Shown here piece after piece: positions 1-6,477 of a DNA stretch of 13,538 nucleotides. Below the pieces are notes generated by a model. The model worked only from the letters and a program-made list of their open reading frames with translations. It did no database searches and was not told the DNA's origin. The translations under genes were made by a program, and so were the position numbers. Numbering within the stretch: the stretch's first letter is position 1; every line of letters begins with the position of its first letter. This DNA comes from Pseudomonas phage 99-2: the sequence record OR621024.1, one strand, 5' to 3'.

Positions 1-30
1 AAAAGGGGTTAGCTTGCGCTAACCCCTTGA
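1..30 (-). terminator. Rho-independent terminator hairpin downstream of the tRNA 3' end (GGGGTTAGC-ttgc-GCTAACCCC), flanked by A/T runs
   Basis: Perfect 9-bp stem at 5-13/18-26 with a 4-nt loop. On the minus strand it is followed by TTTT (positions 1-4) and sits just 3' of the tRNA CCA end. Duplicated at 13457-13486. Confidence 0.55.
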
Positions 31-36
31 AAAATA

Positions 37-82
37 TGGTGGCTACACCGGGACTTGAACCTGGGACATCAGCATTATGAAT
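37..82 (-). tRNA. Partial tRNA(CAU; Met-like) 3' fragment (attL copy, not a functional gene)
   Basis: The reverse complement reads ATTCATAATGCTGATGTCCCAGGTTCAAGTCCCGGTGTAGCCACCA (T-loop TTCAAGT, acceptor TGTAGCC, ACCA). Sequence beyond position 82 cannot pair as the acceptor or anticodon 5' strands, so this copy is truncated. Confidence 0.55.
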
Positions 83-183
83 CCGCTACGAACCGCCCCA
101 CTTAGCCAGAAAGCCCCATAAAACGAGCATTCCAGAACTGCATCATGCTGGCTGAACCAGTACATTTCAGAGATTTTGAGCAA

Positions 184-192
184 TGTAGTCAC
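184..192 (+). promoter_or_regulatory. TGTAGTCAC motif copy near attL (candidate integrase arm-type site)
   Basis: Same 9-mer occurs twice in tandem at 13425-13433 and 13436-13444 just inside attR. Confidence 0.35.
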
Positions 193-240
193 CCGAGCGA
201 AGAACTATACTCGGAACAATCGTAAATGCGTTCTCTGAAG

Positions 241-930
241 CTAACTTTCATATTGAGTGGAAATCACATAATCAATAAATCGTCTCTCGATTTCAGAATT
301 CGCCTCGGAAACGTTGTAAAGACAATTGCTTCTTATATCCAATACAATTGTTCTCCCACTCTCTGAAGATTGCAATTTTATCCTATCAAAACGAATTTTC
401 TTTTTACCAAGAAGCTCTTGAGAGGACTCAATCGCATTCTTAGAGCTATACAAATAAAATGTAATCTTCTCACTTGCAGATATAACTTGGCTCGATGCGT
501 AAGCGTGCGTTATGGTCGTCAACGGCAAATTTAAGCTTATAATCTTGTTTGAAAATTTTTCCAGATCAACGTCTATTTGAGATACAAACAACTTTGACTG
601 AGTTATTTCATTCAAAGCCTTAAGAAATGGTTTAATAGATTTTGAAGAGGATTCAATCTGCAGAAGGTAATTTCTCTTAGAAACATGCCGAAGTCTAAAT
701 AAAAAACGACTAACTTTAAAGAAGGTTATGGTCTGCGCAGACGAGTGAATATCAGACTCATTTAATACAACAACTTCCTCTCGATACCAAAAGAAGCCTG
801 ACACATCTCCATCTGTTACATTCAGGTCGTATAATCCCTTTGTAGAGTCCTCATAGTTTTTATTTTTTCTTAGGCGCTCTACAACCTCATGCGACTCTGA
901 TTCAAAATTAAGGTTAAATAGCTTGTGCAT
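241..930 (-). CDS. Hypothetical protein, 229 aa (third gene of low-GC three-gene operon)
   Basis: Long ORF in ~37% GC DNA. The start lies 8 bp after the upstream gene's stop, with SD TGAGG 7 nt upstream. No TM segments, no Walker motif, no recognisable catalytic motif. Confidence 0.7.
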   Translation of the reverse strand: MHKLFNLNFESESHEVVERLRKNKNYEDSTKGLYDLNVTDGDVSGFFWYREEVVVLNESDIHSSAQTITFFKVSRFLFRLRHVSKRNYLLQIESSSKSIKPFLKALNEITQSKLFVSQIDVDLEKFSNKIISLNLPLTTITHAYASSQVISASEKITFYLYSSKNAIESSQELLGKKKIRFDRIKLQSSESGRTIVLDIRSNCLYNVSEANSEIERRFIDYVISTQYES

Positions 931-938
931 TTTAGGCC

Positions 939-2054
939 TCAGCTTGCGGGTTTAGGGGCCACCTGCTGTGTTAACTTACTTATCAGCTTCCTCGCAGTGT
1001 TTTCTATCTTTGTATGCAGCTCTCTCTCGACGCCACCTGGCGGAGCAATTCTATTAGTAGAGTGGTTCCCCTGAGAAATATACCGATAGTAGCCTTTAAC
1101 CTTTTGCGAGAACACAGTACAGTTTTCAGAATCTTCGAATTTAACCTCAACCTCATAAATGTCTGGAGTGGCACTACTTTCAATGCAAGTCCAAACAGCA
1201 TGATAGCTATAAAATCCTTTGCTATGCAGCAGGTCAACCTCCTTTGAACTCAGAACGCCTTTACCATTCAAAGAAGCCTTGAAAACATGAGTGCCACTAT
1301 CAATATCTTCCGCTTCATCTGAGTCAGAATCACCAAGCTCACTACCAGAATCAGATTTTTTCTTTTCCGGATTAAAAACAGAGACCTTTGAAACGTCTAC
1401 CAGTTCAAAGCCATCTATATTGTTTATCAGATCCTCCAGAAATTTTGACCTATCTTTTGCGTCCTCGATAAATTCCAGACTAATAGCTTCAATCGTTGGT
1501 TTTCCTGAACTGTTTTTGACTAAAAGCTCTAAAAAGTGTTTAGACCACTGATCCGAGTCTTCATTACATTGCGACCTCATCACAAGCTCACCTGCTAGCT
1601 CTGTAATAGTTATGGTCGCTTCTTTCGTAACAGTTTGCTGAAGCTGGCTTTTATTAGGGTTAACCTTGTTATAGGTTATCGTAATAATGATCTCATTACC
1701 TAGCTTTTGAACCTGAGCAAAAGCATCTTTAGGATAATCCTTTGCATTAATTATACCCTCAAGCTCGCTAGCCGCATTAATGACCTCTCTCGAATCTGAG
1801 CCAGCTATAAACTTGGTAGTTATCTTCTCCCGATGAGTGATTGACTGAAGATTTGAAGTCAACTCATCATAATCTCGATAACCAGTAAACATTCTGGAGT
1901 AATAAGACGCCAGCTCCTCTCTTTCCGTCTTAGGGGAAACAATTATACCTCTTTTAAAAAACAGTTCTGACAAGCTCTGATTGCTAACTTTGGCGCTTTT
2001 AACAGCATCGTAGATAGCCTTGTCATTTGGCATGTAAAAATTTTTCTCTTCCAT
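939..2054 (-). CDS. Hypothetical protein, 371 aa (second gene of three-gene operon); two-domain with acidic Ser/Asp linker
   Basis: ORF with SD GGTGGTAAG upstream. The start is 4 bp after the upstream gene's TAA. Internal linker KKKSDSGSELGDSDSDEAEDIDSG. No recognisable motifs. Confidence 0.75.
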   Translation of the reverse strand: MEEKNFYMPNDKAIYDAVKSAKVSNQSLSELFFKRGIIVSPKTEREELASYYSRMFTGYRDYDELTSNLQSITHREKITTKFIAGSDSREVINAASELEGIINAKDYPKDAFAQVQKLGNEIIITITYNKVNPNKSQLQQTVTKEATITITELAGELVMRSQCNEDSDQWSKHFLELLVKNSSGKPTIEAISLEFIEDAKDRSKFLEDLINNIDGFELVDVSKVSVFNPEKKKSDSGSELGDSDSDEAEDIDSGTHVFKASLNGKGVLSSKEVDLLHSKGFYSYHAVWTCIESSATPDIYEVEVKFEDSENCTVFSQKVKGYYRYISQGNHSTNRIAPPGGVERELHTKIENTARKLISKLTQQVAPKPAS

Positions 2055-2058
2055 TGAC

Positions 2059-3138
2059 TTACCACCCGATATCTTCTTTGCTGAAATAGTCGCTCACAGT
2101 CGGTATCACTTCGAACTCTATGCTTTTTATTATCTCAGACTTGCCCCATCTCCTTACATATTCATCTGCCGCACTCCTGAAGAAACTTCTAGCTGCATCA
2201 TCCTGATCTTGCCCTATCGCCCTAATCGAAATTTTCTTACTATTATTAAGTATCTGGTAATTCGATAGCGAGTCGATCAAAAAGAACATCTCTTTCCAAT
2301 CTTTTATTTTCTCTTTATAGTAGACTTTATGTCCGGGCTCAATAGTCTCGGCAACCCGCCCATCTTCGCCATAAAGAGTTCTACCTTGATACTCAACAAT
2401 CATAAAGGGGGCTGAAATAAGCTCCAAAGTCGCAGGCCGCTCATTTGGCAGCATACTGACTTTATGAAGATTTAAATCTGGATAATGGAACTGATAGTCT
2501 TTTGTATTGAACTCCCCCTTTGCTTGCAGCTTCAGGAAGTCGTCAATTATTGTTCTTATATATTTTATTGTCCCTGGCTCCATAATATGGATCTGCTGAC
2601 CCTTCTGAAGATCAATATTCTGAATATTAATATCCTGCTCATTTTCAGACGATTTCCCAGTTCTTCTTTTATTCTTTTTACCGTAGAACACTTCGTAAAA
2701 ATTGCTATCCCAACCACCATCATGGTTGTAAACAAACAACATCCCTCTTATATCTGTATCTCTTTCCGGAATAGAGTAACGATCGCGCCATTCCCTACTC
2801 AATCTCGCACAATCTATTGTCTGCGCCATTGATTTAAGCGCCGATCTAATTGTTCCCTGCTTTATTGAGCCCTTTGCGTAGCTCTTTAGATCGGTGTTTA
2901 GAATAATTTGCTTATTTGTATAGGGATCTTTGTATGAATAAACCGCGTCAGCCGGATGGTTATGATCTTCAACCTTTTCGCTTTCATCATCTTGCTTTTT
3001 ACTTTTATGCAAGCTCGCCTGCTGACAAGTAAAATTCTGGCTATATGGTGGATGAGTATTCCATTTCAACCATGGAGTGATTTCTTCTGCGATTTTTGTC
3101 GCAATGTTGGCAATGCCTTCTCTTTCCCCGCCCGCCAT
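2059..3138 (-). CDS. Hypothetical protein, 359 aa (first gene of three-gene operon)
   Basis: ORF starting ATG 3138 with SD GAGGAC upstream, preceded by a 93-bp AT-rich spacer. No canonical Walker A (GKKNKRRTGKSS does not fit GxxxxGK[ST]). No TM. Confidence 0.75.
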   Translation of the reverse strand: MAGGEREGIANIATKIAEEITPWLKWNTHPPYSQNFTCQQASLHKSKKQDDESEKVEDHNHPADAVYSYKDPYTNKQIILNTDLKSYAKGSIKQGTIRSALKSMAQTIDCARLSREWRDRYSIPERDTDIRGMLFVYNHDGGWDSNFYEVFYGKKNKRRTGKSSENEQDINIQNIDLQKGQQIHIMEPGTIKYIRTIIDDFLKLQAKGEFNTKDYQFHYPDLNLHKVSMLPNERPATLELISAPFMIVEYQGRTLYGEDGRVAETIEPGHKVYYKEKIKDWKEMFFLIDSLSNYQILNNSKKISIRAIGQDQDDAARSFFRSAADEYVRRWGKSEIIKSIEFEVIPTVSDYFSKEDIGW

Positions 3139-3231
3139 GCTCAGTCCTCACACATTCTTAAGATTAATCATTACCTGATAAATACTCGACACACCGGTAT
3201 TTAATTCAAACGATTTAGGTTGAACGATTTA
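3139..3231 (-). promoter_or_regulatory. AT-rich spacer upstream of the three-gene operon; putative promoter (TTGAAT ... TATTTA on minus strand)
   Basis: Only non-coding gap in the minus-strand cargo array. Sigma70-like hexamers are present but the spacing (~19) is imperfect. Confidence 0.25.
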
Positions 3232-3558
3232 TTACCATTCTTTTTCTCTCAGACCTTCAATGCACTCTTTCACGTCATCATTAATGACGTCCCCAGGCTT
3301 GATGCATTCCTTCATGGTGCGACGAACCCCGCGATTGGCTTCGCGTTCTCGTTGATCTTGGGCTTTGAGGTTGGCTCTGGCAGCTTCGCCCATGGGGCCT
3401 TTGGATCCGGCGAACAGTTTGTTCACCAGCTTCTGCATGCCTTTGCCGTAGGCTTCGGCAGCAAGTCTGAGGGCATCACCCACTTGGTGGGTGGGAACGG
3501 GCTTGGATTCTTCTGCGAAAGCGGGGCTTAGGGCCAGTGCCAACAGCATCCTTTTCAT
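3232..3558 (-). CDS. Small secreted/periplasmic protein, 108 aa, with signal peptide (MKRMLLALALSPAFA|EE) and two KECI motifs
   Basis: ORF with SD GGAGA 7 nt upstream. Classic signal peptidase I site. ~52% GC. Lies immediately downstream of a repressor 3'-end repeat copy. Confidence 0.55.
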   Translation of the reverse strand: MKRMLLALALSPAFAEESKPVPTHQVGDALRLAAEAYGKGMQKLVNKLFAGSKGPMGEAARANLKAQDQREREANRGVRRTMKECIKPGDVINDDVKECIEGLREKEW

Positions 3559-3577
3559 TGGTCTTCTCCATTCCTTC

Positions 3578-3700
3578 GGGCGTACCAGCGTCTAGCTACT
3601 TCCTAGGTGGTCGCTATCCCGCGTGTGGATTGGCCTCGCTATAGCCAGGCCCCTTCTGGCCATTCTCTGGCATCAAATCGCCAGTAAGCAAGCACCACTA
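3578..3700. repeat. Diverged direct repeat, copy 1, of the repressor 3' end and downstream sequence (partner 4095-4231)
   Basis: ~58 nt near-identical (gggcgtaccagcgYctagctacttcctRggt..tcgctatcccgcgtKtggattggcc) followed by ~70 nt of diverged homologous sequence. Confidence 0.65.
3614..3697 (-). pseudogene. Remnant of a P2 C-type repressor C-terminus (WCLLTGDLMPENGQKGPGYSEANPHAG*), preceded by an in-frame stop
   Basis: Translation of the minus strand aligns with the C-terminus of the intact repressor at 4132-4404 (WWLLTGEVIPENGQTSPDYDEANRNLANPNAG*). A TAG stop immediately upstream truncates it. Confidence 0.5.
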
Positions 3701-3815
3701 ATGTCTACCTCTCCCTTACGCCCTCACCCGCTTTCTTCGGGCCGATACCACTGCGGTGGCCATACATACCGTCATCCACACGCCGACCAGTATCTTGTGA
3801 CCAGGCAGCATCACG

Positions 3816-4070
3816 CTATTGGTCATAAACCAAGCTATAAGCGCTACCACCACCCAATCGAATATATAGGGCTGCCTTAGCCCTAGAAGCGGATTCCAGC
3901 GTTTTGACGAGAGGCTTAACCAGATATGCGAAACACGTGAGGCAGTAGAAGCCCGTGTAGAGGCTTCCGTAAAAGCTGAATCCGATATAGAGCAAGCCGC
4001 TTACAGCGCTGCCTGCCACGATTGAAAAGCCTAGATTGTTACGCCTTTCGAGAGCTTCGAGTGTGATCAT
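3816..4070 (-). CDS. Small membrane protein, 84 aa, 2 predicted TM helices (moron between the two repressor-end repeats)
   Basis: ATG at 4070 with a plausible codon pattern and hydrophobic stretches GFSIVAGSAVSGLLYIGFSF / FYCLTCFAYLV. The opposite-strand ORF 3623-3880 is His-rich and implausible. Confidence 0.45.
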   Translation of the reverse strand: MITLEALERRNNLGFSIVAGSAVSGLLYIGFSFYGSLYTGFYCLTCFAYLVKPLVKTLESASRAKAALYIRLGGGSAYSLVYDQ

Positions 4071-4094
4071 TGCTTGCCGTCCTTGACCTGATTA

Positions 4095-4231
4095 CGGGCG
4101 TACCAGCGCCTAGCTACTTCCTGGGTAATCGCTATCCCGCGTTTGGATTGGCCAAGTTTCGGTTGGCTTCGTCGTAGTCGGGGCTTGTCTGACCGTTCTC
4201 CGGTATCACTTCGCCGGTAAGCAACCACCAC
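4095..4231. repeat. Direct repeat copy 2 (covers the 3' end of the intact repressor gene plus 37 bp downstream)
   Basis: See 3578-3700. Confidence 0.65.
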
Positions 4232-4404
4232 CTATAGCTAGGGTAGAGCTTTCCGAGTATCTCGATCTCATCCGCGCCGACCCGTGCTCTCCCCCTCTTG
4301 ATGTTCACCCAACGTGGGTAGTCGGTGTCACCCGCCTTCGAGAGTTCTACCAAGCTCGCTGCGTTAATCAGTTGAAGGGCTCTATCAGACAGCTTATCCG
4401 TCAT
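4132..4404 (-). CDS. Immunity repressor, P2 C-like (Pf4r-like), 90 aa
   Basis: The C-terminal half (YRWWLLTGEVIPENGQTSP...) resembles the P2 C repressor C-terminus as I recall it (...YTLWFMTNQIAPESGQIAP...). Divergent from a Cox-like gene across an AT-rich operator region. Confidence 0.6.
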   Translation of the reverse strand: MTDKLSDRALQLINAASLVELSKAGDTDYPRWVNIKRGRARVGADEIEILGKLYPSYRWWLLTGEVIPENGQTSPDYDEANRNLANPNAG

Positions 4405-4515
4405 TATAAATACTCATGGCATGTCATATGTACAAAATGACAAGTTGCCCTTATGGTTTGCACATATGGCAAATTCATACGATTTGCCGTCATTGGTGAA
4501 ACATAAGGTACAGCT
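4405..4515. promoter_or_regulatory. Divergent promoter/operator region of the C/Cox-like switch with two inverted repeats
   Basis: AT-rich 111 bp between divergent genes. TGTCAT-N9-ATGACA at 4422-4442. GGCAAAT-N7-ATTTGCC at 4468-4488. ATGGCA direct repeats at 4416 and 4466. Confidence 0.5.
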
Positions 4516-4788
4516 ATGGAAGAGTCTGGAATAGTGGGGTTCACCGTCACAGGTGCTGTGGAGAAGGTCACGGACTTCCGCACCGCGCCGTTCTGCTCGC
4601 AGGCGGTCTTCGCGCAGATGCTGGGCCTGGAAGACATCACGGAAGACGTGGTGCGGGGCTGGGTGGAAACCAAGACGATTCCGACTGCCAAGATTGGCCG
4701 TCGCCGCGTGGTGAACCTGCACCGCATCCGCCGTGACCTCGACCGGGGTAAGTCGATCTTCTGCCAGGGGGATTACGACGGTGACTAG
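4516..4788 (+). CDS. Cox/XisF-like excisionase-regulator, 90 aa
   Basis: Size, position and the segment FAQMLGLEDITEDVVRGWVETKTIPTAKIGRRRVV resemble P2 Cox (FAKLIGKSTGAVRRMIDKGKLPVIDM) from memory. High GC3 codon usage. SD AAGG. Confidence 0.55.
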   Translation: MEESGIVGFTVTGAVEKVTDFRTAPFCSQAVFAQMLGLEDITEDVVRGWVETKTIPTAKIGRRRVVNLHRIRRDLDRGKSIFCQGDYDGD

Positions 4789-4802
4789 GTACCTCGTAGA
4801 GA

Positions 4803-4996
4803 TGTGCACCTTTCACGGCCCGACTCGGCAACGTCGTTGGCATCGTGTCCATCAGGGCATTTCCCGCGTGGAATGCCAGCGCTGGGTTGAAGAATCGGTG
4901 GCTGTCTTCCCGACCGAAGAAGAAGCCCGCCGCTCCTTCGGCCTGACCCGCGAACGCGCTCGCCAGGCGTACCGCATCTGTGGGGTGAGGGCATGA
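4803..4996 (+). CDS. Hypothetical small protein, 64 aa
   Basis: ATG at 4803 in a GC3-rich frame ending 3 nt before the next gene's start. Weak support. Confidence 0.35.
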
Positions 4997-4999
4997 ACC

Positions 5000-5287
5000 A
5001 TGGCCGCCAGTCCCTACTACCTGCGCCAAACCCACGCCCCGGACTGCGCCTGCTCTGTGTGCTGGTCCGCAAGGCAGGCCATCCCATTGCACAACCCGTC
5101 GCCGTGTCCGGACTGCCGGCCCCCTGGGCTGCCCTATCTGGAAGATGGCCGCTGGTTCTGCCGTCCCCGTTCCTTCTGCGCGAAACACGACCCGTCCCGG
5201 CGTCCGCCGAAGTACTGGCACGTTGTGTACGACAGCGGGAAACCCACGCCCGGCGTTCGACTGCACAAACCTTTCGTCTTGGAGTGA
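5000..5287 (+). CDS. Cys-rich hypothetical protein, 95 aa (7 Cys; possible zinc ribbon)
   Basis: ~85% GC3 in this frame versus the overlapping 4993 frame. SD GAGGG 8 nt upstream. Motifs CxCxxC...CPDC. Confidence 0.55.
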   Translation: MAASPYYLRQTHAPDCACSVCWSARQAIPLHNPSPCPDCRPPGLPYLEDGRWFCRPRSFCAKHDPSRRPPKYWHVVYDSGKPTPGVRLHKPFVLE

Positions 5288-5294
5288 CTGCCTT

Positions 5295-5939
5295 ATGAGA
5301 CAGCCAACCGCACTGATTGCCTGCGAGTTCTCCGGGCGTGTCCGCGATGCACTGGCCCGGGTTGGTTTTTACGCCGTGAGCTGCGATCTGCTGCCTTCGG
5401 AAACCGAAGGGGAACACGTCCAGGGGGATGTCCTGGAAATGCTGGACTGGGGGTGGGATCTGCTGATTGCCCACCCGCCCTGCACTGACCTGGCTACCTC
5501 GGGTGCCCGCTGGTTTCCCGAGAAGATTGCTGACGGTCGTCAGGCACGTGCCCTGGAGTTCGTTCGTACCCTGCTGTCGGCGCCTATTCGATTCAAGGCA
5601 CTGGAGAACCCCAAGTCTGTGATCTCCAGCCATATTCGCAAGCCGGACCAGATCATCCAGCCCTGGATGTTCGGACATGGCGAGCGCAAGGAAACGCACC
5701 TCTGGTTGCAGAACCTGCCGCTTCTGGAGCCGACCCGTATCGTCGATGGACGTTCTCCGGTCGTGCATTACATGGCGCCAGGCCCTGACCGCTGGAAGGA
5801 CCGTAGCCGGACCTATATCGGTATCGCCGAGGCGATGGCCGAGCAGTGGGGCCGTTATGTGATGCGGGCCTTGGCGGAACCAGAATCTGTGAGTTTTCAC
5901 CCCCAGCAGCAGGACCTGCTGCGTGTCCTGGAGGGCTGA
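5295..5939 (+). CDS. Short (214 aa) protein with DNA cytosine-5 methyltransferase-like motifs (FSG ... HPPCTDLATSGAR ... ENP)
   Basis: ATG at 5295 with SD GGAG. Motif IV-like PPC with downstream S.G.R. Motif VI-like LENPKSV. Motif I-like EFSG lacks the Gly-rich loop. Too short for a target recognition domain. Confidence 0.55.
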   Translation: MRQPTALIACEFSGRVRDALARVGFYAVSCDLLPSETEGEHVQGDVLEMLDWGWDLLIAHPPCTDLATSGARWFPEKIADGRQARALEFVRTLLSAPIRFKALENPKSVISSHIRKPDQIIQPWMFGHGERKETHLWLQNLPLLEPTRIVDGRSPVVHYMAPGPDRWKDRSRTYIGIAEAMAEQWGRYVMRALAEPESVSFHPQQQDLLRVLEG

Positions 5940-6477
5940 CCCGTGCTCGCTGACACCCTGAAAGCGCTGCTCCTGCTCTGCCTGATCCAGGCCGCCCGCA
6001 CCGTGGCCGATCCGGTCAAGGGCCGCGCTCCCGGCTCGTCGGAACAGCTTCACCGTTCCGGCGAACGGAAGCACGGGCGGAGCGCACCCTTGAACGCCTC
6101 CCCCCTGAAACAGCCTCCGCTGGGGAGTGTGGGGCAGCTCCTCCGCCCCGCGCTCCCGAGCCCTCGGCGGCAAGAGCGGGATGACAAGGGCAGAGCCCTT
6201 GGTGTTAACAGACTTGAAAGTTATTCATTTTGGCGAAAATCGAAATGCTCGTTACTGCACTTTGTTGCTCAATAAGTTCAGTAGCTTGATATTTCCTCAG
6301 AAAAGATTTTAGGCGCTTTAACTGTGTTGATATAGCTCCACTAGAACTCGCTGAAACTCGGTAAAAAAGGCTCTTCTTTTCCTAAGCAATCACTTCCGCT
6401 GAATCACCGGCACATGAGCCGAATTGCAGCAGCGGGCTAACTCACGCCGAAAAAGGCGAATTGAAGGAGAAACACCG

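What the first reader, a model, noticed from the sequence alone, without database searches (positions are those of the whole stretch)
3578..4231. Duplicated repressor 3'-end module with a dead C-terminal gene fragment: iterative moron insertion hotspot
A ~58-nt nearly identical block plus ~70 nt of diverged homologous sequence occurs twice (3578-3700 and 4095-4231). Copy 2 is the true 3' end of the repressor gene. Copy 1 encodes only the last 27 codons (WCLLTGDLMPENGQKGPGYSEANPHAG*), preceded by an in-frame stop. Each copy is followed, about 60-75 bp downstream of its stop codon, by a different small gene with its own SD. The one after copy 2 is the 2-TM protein and the one after copy 1 is the signal-peptide protein. 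This looks like successive cargo acquisition by recombination at the repressor terminus, so that terminus acts as a cassette-exchange site.
Basis: seen in the sequence. Interest (0 to 1): 0.6.

Follow-up and report, generated by a model that had tools for sequence, protein, structure and literature searches.

The report
Repressor-end relic hiding a second reading frame
The repeat is real: it is the fossil 3' end of a second phage repressor gene left by an old recombination, and the part that stayed nearly identical looks protein-coding in a shifted reading frame, probably a frameshift-made longer form of the Pf phage repressor that ends on the start codon of the first cargo gene.

Summary
3577-3635 and 4095-4153 are 59 nt at 92% identity, and weaker homology runs to 3699/4232. 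Copy 2 ends the intact Pf4r-type repressor (4132-4404, minus strand). Copy 1 is a start-less 27-codon relic.

The window is a whole Pf-type filamentous prophage. In relatives, this repressor end is the last conserved sequence before a hypervariable cargo arm. It is present in 70/70 excisionase-anchored loci and in about 35 Pseudomonadaceae species, followed by at least 31 unrelated first-gene families. Second copies recur in about 6% of loci, with breakpoints from a whole second repressor down to a few codons. They are scars of illegitimate joins, not sites of a cassette system.

The window's scar is old. The unit trailer / 119-aa membrane gene / relic / trailer occurs with the same breakpoint in several species. 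The "2-TM gene" is a 5-nt-deletion frameshift derivative of that 119-aa gene.

New point: the 37-nt "untranslated" trailer evolves as coding sequence in the -1 frame (pN/pS 0.27 against 0.9-1.3 in the other sense frames; 0/2000 permutations reach it). That frame is open in 61/62 loci and has no start codon in 40/62. I infer a -1 ribosomal frameshift near A-AAC (4159-4156), giving a 112-aa repressor isoform. Its stop (TGA 4069-4067) overlaps the cargo ATG. This is untested experimentally.

The parts
1..82 (.). Left copy of the 82-nt direct repeat that bounds the prophage (att site). The right copy is 13457-13538.
   Evidence: 100% identical 82-nt repeat at both ends of the window. ARAGORN finds no complete tRNA. 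That the repeat holds a tRNA 3' end is my reading of the sequence, not tested.
241..3138 (-). AT-rich three-gene cargo (241-930, 939-2054, 2059-3138), a candidate anti-phage defence system of the GAPS4 / PDDEXK type. It is the distal part of the cargo arm.
   Evidence: GC 0.36-0.43 against 0.55-0.70 in the phage core. Pfam PF26115 PDDEXK_GAPS4 on the 359-aa product in identical contigs. PADLOC Hp1/Hp2 at E = 5e-45 and 9e-35. Homologues in phage 54-4.
3232..3558 (-). Small secreted-type protein (108 aa, PHROG 5121). This is the commonest first gene after the repressor in Pf prophages.
   Evidence: phrog_5121 at E = 8e-47. Homologues follow the repressor directly in phage 62-2, PfAC11, PfAC20, PfAC04 and 54-4, and in many IMG/VR and genome loci, starting 18-19 nt after the junction.
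3577..3635 (-). Block copy 1 (dead): the last 7 codons, the stop and the 37-nt trailer of a lost repressor gene.
   Evidence: Its -1 frame carries a premature TAG at 3605-3603.
3614..3700 (-). Relic of a second repressor gene: 27 codons plus stop (3697-3614), preceded by an in-frame TAG (3700-3698). It has no start codon. It lacks the 15 nt (AAC CGA AAC TTG GCC) that hold the candidate slip site.
   Evidence: This allele was found only as a fragment behind the 119-aa gene, never as an intact repressor.
3716..4070 (-). Frameshifted small membrane-protein gene. The 84-aa ORF 3816-4070 and ORF 3716-3853 together correspond to an intact 119-aa protein. A 5-nt deletion lies between 3927 and 3926.
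   Evidence: Homologues P0002-P0006 and P0008 are 118-119 aa. DNA alignment to Ectopseudomonas alcaliphila locus L083. Hydropathy shows 4 hydrophobic segments in P0003 and one clear segment in the 84-aa product. The exact 84-aa product is on 23 contigs, all with the same arrangement.
4095..4153 (-). Block copy 2 (live): the last 7 repressor codons, the stop (4134-4132) and the 37-nt trailer (4131-4095). Conservation among relatives ends at 4095.
4132..4404 (-). Pf4r-family c repressor, 90 aa, intact. It is divergent from the excisionase gene 4516-4788(+).
   Evidence: PDB 6wnm (Pf4r) E = 1.4e-21 and 6x6f (Pf6r) E = 1.9e-21. phrog_147 transcriptional regulator. Annotated 'repressor' in phage 62-2 and the PfAC phages.
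4067..4159 (-). Hidden -1 reading frame: KLGQSKRGIAITQEVARRWYARNQVKDGKQ*. It overlaps the last 8 repressor codons and runs through the trailer. Its TGA (4069-4067) overlaps the ATG (4070-4068) of the next gene.
   Evidence: Frame open in 61/62 unbiased loci, without ATG/GTG/TTG in 40/62. Diversity periodicity switches frame at about -64. pN/pS 0.27 in the trailer against 1.31 and 0.93 in the other sense frames, and 0.55 against 0.92 in the overlap zone. 0/2000 column permutations reach the observed ratio. Coordinates.
4153..4161 (-). CGA AAC TTG, holding the candidate -1 slip site A-AAC (4159-4156). The stretch AAACTT is invariant among relatives.
   Evidence: Diversity 0.00-0.06 at positions -64..-59. 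Allelic forms are C CGA AAC, U AAA AAC, C CAA AAC and U AGA AAC. In some alleles the -1 frame stop lies immediately 5' of the site. That this is the slip site is an inference.
4516..4788 (+). Excisionase (XisF-type), used as the unbiased anchor for the comparative set.
   Evidence: 95-97% DNA identity to annotated excisionase genes of Pf phages. 80 IMG/VR loci retrieved with it.

Best explanation
Shown: the window is a complete Pf-type inovirus prophage. Its left arm reads, on the minus strand: c repressor, 37-nt trailer, frameshifted 119-aa membrane-protein gene, relic of a second repressor end with its own trailer, secreted-protein gene, defence genes, att.

Inferred origin of the repeat: it is a recombination scar. 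An ancestral arm 'repressor - trailer - secreted-protein gene' was joined illegitimately to another Pf genome's 'repressor - trailer - 119-aa gene'. The join cut the resident repressor 27 codons before its stop. This happened once, long ago. The unit trailer / 119-aa gene / relic / trailer has since travelled by ordinary homologous recombination, using the conserved repressor end as one anchor.

Shown: the repressor end is conserved, and the two copies stay alike there, in a way that matches protein coding and not spacer. From about 8 codons before the repressor stop through the whole trailer, sequence evolves under purifying selection in the -1 frame. That frame usually has no start codon.

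Inferred mechanism: a fraction of ribosomes slip -1 at the invariant A-AAC (4159-4156). They make a 112-aa repressor isoform with a basic tail (...RGIAITQEVARRWYAR...) and terminate at a TGA that overlaps the ATG of the first cargo gene. This may couple cargo translation to repressor translation. The end of that conserved tail is the sharp border beyond which cargo is free to vary, which makes it look like a fixed insertion point.

In the dead copy this frame has a nonsense codon and the slip region is deleted.
For: Scar model:
- Phage 62-2 has repressor, trailer and secreted-protein gene with a single block.
- Every locus with the 119-aa gene has the same relic with the same breakpoint and the same 15-nt deletion. 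These come from P. aeruginosa, E. alcaliphila, E. mendocina and metagenomic contigs. They carry different repressor N-termini and different distal cargo, NACHT instead of GAPS4, or a non-SP gene in L165.
- Other loci show independent second copies with other breakpoints. L118 has two intact tandem repressors. PfAC20 has a near-full frameshifted pseudogene. PfAC04 has a decayed copy. L126/L130 and L129 have short remnants fused to a cargo gene's C-terminus.

Border:
- The repressor end is present in 70/70 excisionase-anchored loci.
- It occurs in 41 stretches from about 35 species of five genera.
- Conservation drops from 0.76 to 0.44 at the junction.
- It is followed by at least 31 unrelated first-gene families, plus 26 unique contexts with no co-oriented ORF.

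Hidden frame:
- The -1 frame is open in 61/62 loci and has no start codon in 40/62.
- The switch of codon periodicity falls at about -64.
- pN/pS values are given, and the permutation test.
- The antisense frame that shares the wobble positions does worse: 0.42, with stops in 7/62 unique sequences.
- The dead copies carry nonsense codons in this frame in 2 of 6 representatives, against 1 of 61 unique live copies.

Other:
- No terminator, conserved RNA structure or Rfam family lies between the repressor and the cargo.
- The ATGA stop/start overlap is seen with several unrelated cargo families.
- -1 shifting at CGA_AAG-type sites, and regulator-extension fusions in IS elements, are established (PMC5009743).
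Against: - No experimental evidence exists for the -1 product.
- The commonest site, C CGA AAC, is not a classic X XXY YYZ heptamer. It uses an Asn codon, not the Lys codon of the proven CGA AAG sites.
- No stimulatory hairpin or SD-like element was found.
- One live allele has a stop four codons into the trailer (L122/L011). Three alleles alter the AAC codon.
- CGC GGG ATA is invariant even at its -1-frame wobble positions. Something beyond -1 coding constrains it: the zero-frame A-G-stop, or a signal.
- The ATGA overlap is partly expected, because purine-rich leaders lack stops before the ATG. My rough binomial estimate is P of about 0.01.
- No parental arrangement 'repressor - trailer - 119-aa gene' without the relic was found, so the donor of the scar model is hypothetical.
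- The sequences are related by descent, so pairwise pN/pS counts events more than once.
Confidence: 0.6

Rival explanations
1. The -1 frame peptide is made, but not by frameshifting. It would be a separate micro-ORF started at a non-canonical codon (for example ATA or ATC just after the repressor stop), or made by termination-reinitiation at the repressor stop.
For: The most invariant stretch is ACGCGGGATAGCGAT, around the stop. A GGGA lies 5 nt before ATC. The common slip candidate is weak. 22/62 loci also have an upstream in-frame GTG or ATG.
Against: 40/62 loci have no ATG/GTG/TTG in the open part. The -1 frame is already the better-conserved frame upstream of the stop (0.52-0.55 against 0.92-1.2). 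The region between the upstream GTG/ATG and -68 shows no -1-frame constraint (pN/pS 1.43). ATA and ATC starts are very inefficient in bacteria (general knowledge).
Confidence: 0.17
2. The trailer is a non-coding cis element, such as a protein-binding DNA site or an mRNA leader needed for the downstream gene. On this view the coding-like pattern is coincidental, and the duplication is kept because each co-transcribed gene needs the element.
For: The trailer has no indels and is more conserved (0.76) than nearby synonymous sites (0.68). Distal copies followed by a co-oriented gene are better kept (0.81-0.95) than PfAC04's copy (0.54), which faces opposite-strand genes.
Against: Variation falls on -1-frame wobble positions and is synonymous (ATC/ATT/ATA, ACN, GTA/GTG, AGG/AGA, CGC/CGT, TAC/TAT). 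0/2000 permutations match the ratio. There is no covariation and no stable fold and no Rfam hit. Most multi-gene arms have only one block.
Confidence: 0.1
3. The block is the attachment site of a site-specific cassette system (integron-like). Cargo genes are inserted one after another at ...GCCCG| by a recombinase.
For: Homology to all relatives ends at the same base next to dozens of different sequences. Many cargo genes are co-oriented and start 10-30 nt after it.
Against: Second copies include repressor coding sequence of variable length, from about 5 codons to a full gene. They occur in only about 6% of loci. No block lies between the further cargo genes. Leaders within one cargo protein family also differ from the first base, so the sharp edge marks the end of constraint, not a cut site. 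The block has no similarity to the att repeat (my own reading of the two sequences; no alignment was run).
Confidence: 0.04
4. The repeat is a local tandem duplication of the repressor 3' end that later diverged. Alternatively, the periodic signal comes from an ORF on the opposite strand.
For: The repeats are direct and 518 nt apart. The antisense frame that shares wobble positions has pN/pS 0.42.
Against: The two copies are different alleles outside the block. The relic matches the repressor consensus at about 0.56 upstream of the block, including the 15-nt gap. An unrelated gene lies between them. The antisense frame has stops in 7/62 unique sequences. It would have to start inside the variable cargo leader, and it has no start codon in this window (and the sequence).
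Confidence: 0.05

Closest known systems
Accessory ('moron') arms of Pf prophages flanking the core genes int and orf89/pf4r (Fiedoruk et al. 2020, PMC7549136; PMC11878078)
   Same: The variable genes, many of them defence systems, lie between the att site and the c repressor, exactly as here. Content differs from phage to phage.
   Different: The passages of those papers that I searched by keyword describe gene content. I found no mention of the conserved repressor-end border, the recurrent repressor-end relics, or any coding capacity of the trailer.
Mosaic junctions and scars of illegitimate recombination in temperate phages (the moron-accretion model for lambdoid phages; my own knowledge of the Hendrix/Juhala literature)
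   Same: New genes are added at gene boundaries by rare non-homologous joins. Conserved flanks then allow homologous exchange. Truncated gene remnants mark the joins.
   Different: Here the same border is used across five genera. Its sharpness is explained by the end of an overlapping coding frame, not by a non-coding linker.
-1 frameshifting that extends a small DNA-binding regulator: the IS1 and IS3 families, IS1222 at G_CGA_AAG, B. subtilis cdd at A_CGA_AAG (review PMC5009743)
   Same: A short regulator ORF. A -1 ORF without its own start overlaps its 3' end. The slip context is of the CGA_AAx or AAA_AAC type, close to the zero-frame stop.
   Different: The downstream frame here encodes only about 21 conserved residues, not an enzyme domain. 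The A-site codon is AAC (Asn). No stimulator was found. The frame ends on the start codon of a variable cargo gene. Nothing has been shown experimentally.
Pf4r / Pf6r, P2 C-type repressors (PDB 6wnm, 6x6f; PMC8402870)
   Same: The 90-aa protein aligns over its whole length, including the tail GQTSPDYDEAN.NL.N.NAG.
   Different: The published work used C-terminally His-tagged constructs, which would replace the natural stop and trailer. The papers I searched do not mention an extended isoform. The unexplained Arg80Leu change of superinfective Pf4 lies in the codon 5' of the candidate slip codon.
Integron attI/attC cassette arrays
   Same: Promoter-proximal position, co-oriented promoterless genes and one fixed border.
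   Different: There is no repeated site per cassette. The 'site' copies are gene remnants of variable length. Nothing links the phage integrase to this position. See the membership test.

Membership tests
Pf4r / P2 C-type prophage repressor | Sequence similarity over the full length to characterised Pf4r/Pf6r | tested here: met
   E = 1.4e-21 and 1.9e-21, residues 4-90 aligned. phrog_147 at E = 3e-24.
Pf4r / P2 C-type prophage repressor | Divergent from the excisionase gene across a short regulatory region | tested here: met
   Repressor 4132-4404(-) and xis 4516-4788(+) are 111 nt apart. Annotated Pf phages have the same layout.
Pf4r / P2 C-type prophage repressor | Represses xis and confers immunity | not testable with these tools
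   Needs genetics.
Pf prophage accessory (moron) arm | Lies between the att repeat and the boundary core gene (repressor); content varies between related prophages | tested here: met
   Arm 83-4094, bounded by att and the repressor. At least 31 first-gene families occupy the same place in relatives.
Recombination scar (gene remnant from an illegitimate join) | Truncated, start-less homologue of a neighbouring gene with signs of decay | tested here: met
   27 codons with no start, a 15-nt deletion and a nonsense codon in the -1 frame. L165 has a stop in the relic's own frame.
Recombination scar (gene remnant from an illegitimate join) | Independent cases show different breakpoints | tested here: met
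   Full second repressor (L118), near-full pseudogene (PfAC20), 27 codons (window family), about 10 and about 5 codons (L126, L129).
Recombination scar (gene remnant from an illegitimate join) | A parental arrangement without the scar exists | tested here: inconclusive
   The recipient type (repressor, trailer, SP gene) exists (62-2, L177, L181 and others). A donor type carrying the 119-aa gene without the relic was not found.
Integron-like site-specific cassette array | A recombination site flanks every cassette | tested here: not met
   One block per arm in about 94% of loci, although the arms hold several genes.
Integron-like site-specific cassette array | Site copies have a fixed extent | tested here: not met
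   The copies carry from about 5 codons to a full repressor gene.
Programmed -1 ribosomal frameshift | A -1 ORF overlaps the 3' end of the zero-frame gene and lacks its own start codon | tested here: met
   Open in 61/62 loci. No ATG/GTG/TTG in 40/62. A -1 stop lies directly 5' of the site in some alleles.
Programmed -1 ribosomal frameshift | Purifying selection in the -1 frame downstream of the site and loss of zero-frame constraint | tested here: met
   Trailer 0.27. Overlap zone 0.55 (-1 frame) against 0.92-1.2 (zero frame). Upstream region 0.31 (zero frame) against 1.43 (-1 frame). Permutation 0/2000.
Programmed -1 ribosomal frameshift | Slippery heptamer X XXY YYZ | tested here: inconclusive
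   U AAA AAC in one allele group. C CGA AAC or C CAA AAC in most, which resembles the proven CGA_AAG sites but with an Asn codon. AAACTT is invariant.
Programmed -1 ribosomal frameshift | Downstream structure or upstream SD-like stimulator | tested here: not met
   No conserved structure, z-scores near 0, no covariation. The upstream GAGG is not conserved.
Programmed -1 ribosomal frameshift | Trans-frame protein detected | not testable with these tools
   Needs mass spectrometry, immunoblot, a reporter or ribosome profiling. No naturally fused in-frame homologue appears among the best 120 of 224 database hits.

The most novel reading that the evidence does not exclude
Pf-type inovirus repressor genes carry a conserved programmed -1 frameshift. 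It yields a second, C-terminally extended repressor isoform (basic tail ...RGIAITQEVARRWYAR...). Its reading frame ends on the start codon of whatever cargo gene sits next, so lysogenic expression of cargo is translationally coupled to the repressor. The end of this frame then defines the universal docking border for cargo in these phages. The unexplained Arg80Leu change of superinfective Pf4 would act on the slip site.
Probability: 0.4. Interest if true: 0.78.

Novelty: new variant of a known kind. Interest (0 to 1): 0.6.

Why it matters
Pf phages shape Pseudomonas aeruginosa biofilms, virulence and phage resistance. Their repressor is the switch that superinfective variants break.

If the repressor has a frameshift-made second isoform, the genetics of Pf4r/Pf5r needs re-reading. 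That covers His-tagged constructs, C-terminal mutations, and deletions that stop at the annotated stop codon. A new control point for lysogeny and for expression of prophage-borne defence genes would also appear.

It would explain why dozens of unrelated cargo genes in five genera all begin just behind the same sequence. That border is a practical landmark for finding new defence genes in inovirus prophages.

Without the frameshift, the finding is an ordinary but well-documented example of how recombination scars record the stepwise growth of a phage's cargo arm.

Tried and rejected
- RNA element or terminator in the block: RNAalifold gives -4 kcal/mol with no compensatory pairs. My own two-helix model has 0 covarying pairs. 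Single-sequence folds have z = 0.7 and -0.2. No terminator-like site lies between the genes. No Rfam match at E <= 1.
- Block as the rolling-circle origin, which could give precise hybrid junctions as in CTX-phi: Pf1 replicates but has no block (nhmmer finds none). Rejected.
- A third copy of the core GATAGCGATCAC at the end of the replication-initiator gene (11930-11942, also in Pf1): in this window 3 matches with up to 2 mismatches were found, and 3/200 shuffles reach that. The motif is confined to one initiator lineage, while the block is not. Treated as chance or lineage-specific.
- 'The dead copy keeps the block but lost the rest, so the block has its own function': the relic's profile (0.56 / 0.82 / 0.89) simply mirrors the normal inter-allele profile once the 15-nt gap is allowed for. 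Not used as evidence.
- Independent ORF from the upstream GTG (window ORF 4067-4231): no -1-frame constraint upstream of -68.
- Naturally fused in-frame repressor-extension proteins: none in the best 120 hits.
- Pre-insertion or deletion variants carrying the window's exact SP allele but no 119-aa gene: none. All contigs have both.
- P. citronellolis-type 82-aa repressors (...DQANPAG*) as the source of the relic allele: their trailer is unrelated.
- The Pfam, PHROG and PADLOC libraries and a PDB sequence search gave no function for the SP protein. Pfam (for its 84-aa window form), PHROG and PADLOC gave none for the 119-aa protein.
- The promoter scan found nothing, but it also misses the known repressor promoter region, so it is uninformative.
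Full report
**What the window is.** The 13,538-nt window is bounded by a perfect 82-nt direct repeat, 1-82 and 13457-13538. Between the repeats lies a complete Pf-type filamentous prophage:
- an excisionase;
- a PflM/DUF5447 gene;
- an ssDNA-binding protein, coat proteins and Zot;
- a replication initiator and an integrase.

The left arm, 83-4404, is transcribed on the minus strand. It is identical to P. aeruginosa assembly GCA_022552535.1 over all the sequence compared (1-10200).

- 3577-3635 and 4095-4153 are 59 nt at 92% identity, with E = 4e-17.
- Gapped homology reaches 3699 / 4232, with 15 nt missing from copy 1.
- Copy 2 is the end of a 90-aa ORF (4132-4404) that matches the crystallised Pf4r and Pf6r repressors at E = 1e-21.
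- Copy 1 is 27 codons plus a stop (3697-3614). An in-frame TAG precedes it and it has no start codon.

**One correction: the '2-TM gene'.**
- Its relatives are 118-119 aa with four hydrophobic segments.
- The window lacks 5 nt between 3927 and 3926. The ORF therefore runs into a foreign frame after codon 48.
- The original frame survives as ORF 3716-3853 and stops 16 nt from the relic.
- All 23 contigs that encode the exact 84-aa product have the same arrangement.

**What relatives show about the block.** In phage 62-2 the same repressor allele is followed by one block and then directly by the secreted-protein gene.
- Across six phage contexts, homology ends at the same base...GGTA(C/T)GCCCG|.
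- A pattern scan of IMG/VR found 62 contigs. Together with five sites already in hand (three phage loci and the window's two copies), that gave 67 junction sites followed by 39 different sequences.
- An unbiased set anchored on the excisionase gene has the repressor end in 70/70 loci.
- A 44-nt pattern occurs in 41 stretches of about 35 species of Pseudomonas, Ectopseudomonas, Stutzerimonas, Aquipseudomonas and Phytopseudomonas.
- Over all intact copies, at least 31 unrelated protein families start just behind it. A further 26 unique contexts have no co-oriented ORF.
- Mean pairwise identity is 0.45-0.6 in the N-terminal repressor codons and 0.74-0.92 in the last 100 nt. It is 0.76 in the 37-nt trailer and 0.44 immediately after it.

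Cargo does join at this border, and the block sits next to unrelated cargo. The literature I searched describes accessory genes flanking int and the repressor gene, but neither this border nor the relics.

**What the duplication is.** Second copies are a minority. I found them in:
- the window family;
- PfAC20, PfAC04 and L051 (= L129);
- L118, and L126/L130;
- L178 and L200.

Their extent differs from case to case:
- L118 has two intact repressor genes in tandem. The second starts 8 nt after the first trailer.
- PfAC20 has a near-full-length frameshifted pseudogene behind the secreted-protein gene.
- PfAC04 has a decayed copy.
- L126/L130 and L129 have about 5-10 terminal codons fused in frame to the end of a 95-aa cargo gene. 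In L126 the distal trailer is again followed by the secreted-protein gene.

Variable breakpoints, coding remnants and rarity point to scars of illegitimate joins between Pf genomes. They argue against a recombinase site.

The window's scar is old:
- The stretch trailer / 119-aa gene / relic / trailer / SP gene is 88.5% identical over 932 nt in Ectopseudomonas alcaliphila. There the repressor N-terminus is different and a NACHT gene replaces the GAPS4-type genes.
- The same relic follows the 119-aa gene in E. mendocina, a Pseudomonas MAG and metagenomic contigs. In L165 it is followed by a non-SP gene.
- The relic's allele, with its 15-nt deletion, was never seen as an intact repressor.

In recent P. 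aeruginosa history the whole arm 1-4500 is 98-100% identical, while it sits on at least two very different structural cores (69-82% identity or no match). Recent exchange therefore used crossovers in the core, not in the block.

**Why the block is conserved: the new point.**
- I found no RNA structure, terminator or Rfam family in it.
- It is not the replication origin, because Pf1 lacks it.
- The variable positions of the trailer are ATC/ATT/ATA, ACA/ACC/ACT/ACG, GTA/GTG, AGG/AGA, CGC/CGT and TAC/TAT.
- All of these are third positions of the -1 frame relative to the repressor, and all are synonymous there. That frame reads ...K L x (Q/R)(S/T)(K/Q/R) R G I (A/E) I T x x (V/A/I)(A/T) x R W (Y/F) A (R)...
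- In the unbiased set the frame is open through the trailer in 61 of 62 loci. In 40 of 62 it contains no ATG, GTG or TTG.
- Per-site diversity shows clean repressor-frame periodicity up to position -67 (counted from the junction). From -64 the repressor's third positions become invariant and the periodicity moves to the -1 frame. AAACTT (-64..-59) and CGCGGGATAG (-46..-37) are invariant.

Nei-Gojobori pN/pS on 191 intact copies, 126 unique over positions -149..0:

| Region | Frame | pN/pS |
|---|---|---|
| Repressor codons -129..-67 | repressor frame | 0.31 |
| Repressor codons -129..-67 | -1 frame | 1.43 |
| Last eight repressor codons | -1 frame | 0.55 |
| Last eight repressor codons | repressor frame | 0.92 |
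| Trailer | -1 frame | 0.27 |
| Trailer | other two sense frames | 1.31, 0.93 |
| Trailer | three antisense frames | 0.42, 1.01, 1.20 |

- The antisense 0.42 frame shares the wobble positions and has stops in 7 of 62 unique sequences. The -1 sense frame has a stop in 1 of 61.
- Permuting the alignment columns 2000 times gave a median of 0.77 and a minimum of 0.28. None reached the observed 0.267.
- The dead copies behave as expected for lost constraint. The window's relic has TAG in this frame (3605-3603) and L083's has TAA. The slip region is deleted in all of them.

**How I think it works (inference).**
- A -1 frame under selection, overlapping the end of a gene and lacking its own start, is the signature of ribosomal frameshifting.
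- The only invariant candidate inside the permitted interval is A-AAC, at 4159-4156 within CGA AAC TTG (4161-4153).
- Its allelic forms are C CGA AAC, U AAA AAC, C CAA AAC and U AGA AAC. In some alleles the -1 frame stop lies immediately 5' of it.
- -1 shifting at A_CGA_AAG and G_CGA_AAG is documented. So are IS-element frameshifts that extend a small DNA-binding regulator (PMC5009743).
- The predicted product is 112 aa: repressor residues 1-83 followed by LGQSKRGIAITQEVARRWYARNQVKDGKQ.
- The -1 frame ends at TGA 4069-4067, which overlaps the ATG 4070-4068 of the next gene.

The same ATGA overlap occurs with other cargo genes:
- the secreted-protein gene (17 of 19 unique contexts, two leader types);
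- the 119-aa gene (3 of 3);
- several unrelated genes.

In the MDIERA family the stop lies 8 nt inside the gene. This suggests termination-reinitiation coupling. However, purine-rich leaders make such overlaps partly expected.

On this reading, the 'fixed insertion point' is the end of the conserved part of the tail (W-Y-A-R). Beyond it each cargo gene brings its own leader. Leaders differ from the first base even within one cargo family.

**Weak points.**
- There is no experimental evidence.
- The common site is not a canonical heptamer, and no stimulator was found.
- One live allele truncates the tail after four residues, and three alleles change the AAC codon.
- CGC GGG ATA is invariant even at its wobble positions, so a second constraint acts there.
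- No naturally fused homologue exists among the best 120 hits.
- Rivals are an independently initiated micro-ORF, a non-coding element, and an antisense ORF. They are listed with their tests.

**A lead from the literature.** The superinfective Pf4 variant carries Ser4Pro and Arg80Leu in Pf4r. Arg80Leu (788570C>A, which I read as CGA to CTA on the coding strand) did not affect immunity and was left unexplained. The authors note that the C-terminal region seems unimportant for repressor function (PMC8402870). Arg80 is the CGA codion directly 5' of the candidate slip codon, and the change is silent in the -1 frame. The published constructs were C-terminally His-tagged, which would remove the natural stop and trailer. 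The papers I searched on Pf4r do not mention frameshifting.

**Verdict.** The duplicated module is real and is a recombination scar at the universal inner border of the Pf cargo arm. As such it is a new, well-documented member of a known kind of event. The more interesting result is that the conserved block is, by comparative evidence, coding in a shifted frame. That implies a previously undescribed extended repressor isoform, directly testable in Pf4/PAO1.

Noticed in passing
window 241-3138 (-): An AT-rich (36-43% GC) three-gene block inside a 55-70% GC phage. The 359-aa protein carries Pfam PDDEXK_GAPS4. The 359- and 371-aa proteins match PADLOC candidates Hp1 and Hp2. Distant homologues lie in the cargo arm of phage 54-4. 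It is probably an anti-phage defence system carried by the prophage.
   Followed up: partly
window 3716-4070 (-): The gene after the repressor is split by a 5-nt deletion (between 3927 and 3926) into an 84-aa ORF and a 45-aa ORF. Intact 118-119-aa versions exist in Ectopseudomonas and in metagenomes. All 23 contigs that carry the exact 84-aa product have the same arrangement. Another variant (P0007) is truncated with an IS3-type transposase gene directly downstream.
   Followed up: yes
L118 3749-4210 (IMG/VR 2540341139_000001): Two intact but different repressor genes lie in tandem. The second starts 8 nt after the first one's trailer, in the position of a first cargo gene. This may be a doubly immune Pf phage.
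   Followed up: partly
Pf4r codon 80; window equivalent 4161-4159: The unexplained Arg80Leu mutation of superinfective Pf4 (PMC8402870) falls in the CGA codon immediately 5' of the candidate slip codon AAC. It is silent in the -1 frame.
   Followed up: partly
window 11930-11942 (-); Pf1 NC_001331 5659-5673: The block's core GATAGCGATCAC(ACA) also occurs at the 3' end of the replication-initiator gene, with a 15/15 match in Pf1. It is confined to the KLMCDRYL initiator lineage and absent from other lineages that have the block. It is probably chance or lineage-specific.
   Followed up: yes
window 1-4500 vs 6900-10200; loci L073-L082: The same left arm (98-100% identical) is attached to at least two very different Pf structural cores (69-82% identity or no match). 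This shows recent arm/core recombination to the right of the excisionase gene.
   Followed up: partly
L003 (PfAC20, PP058144) 3718-4035: The annotated 'ORF4 hypothetical protein' on the plus strand overlaps a frameshifted repressor pseudogene on the other strand. It is probably an annotation artefact. In PfAC04 the repressor itself is not annotated. PHROG 37130 (49 aa) matches only the C-terminal half of the repressor and may collect such fragments.
   Followed up: partly
L126/L130 and L129 (IMG/VR): A 95-aa cargo protein (MD(I/V)ERA...) ends with the last codons and the stop of a repressor remnant (...ARNPNAG*). The gene has captured the relic as its own C-terminus.
   Followed up: partly
L215-L220 (P. 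citronellolis and others): Shorter 82-aa repressor relatives (...DQANPAG*) sit in a different kind of element, with P4 cII-like or AAA_15 ATPase neighbours. They lack both the NRNL codons and the conserved trailer. The hidden frame is therefore specific to the Pf-type group.
   Followed up: partly
L184 (contig CAZQQB010000089.1): A contig with the exact 44-nt block is labelled as a Nitrososphaerota archaeon MAG. This is most likely a mis-binned Pseudomonas phage contig.
   Followed up: no
window 12943-13422 (-): A 159-aa ORF (PHROG 15254, unknown function) lies between the integrase gene and the right att repeat, so there is a second, small accessory arm.
   Followed up: no
window 8156-8482 (+): Degenerate GGC-rich repeats (9 copies of a 39-nt unit) encode the Gly/Ser/Asp-rich middle of the 384-aa ORF 7635-8789, which occupies the position of minor coat protein CoaA in annotated Pf phages.
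   Followed up: no
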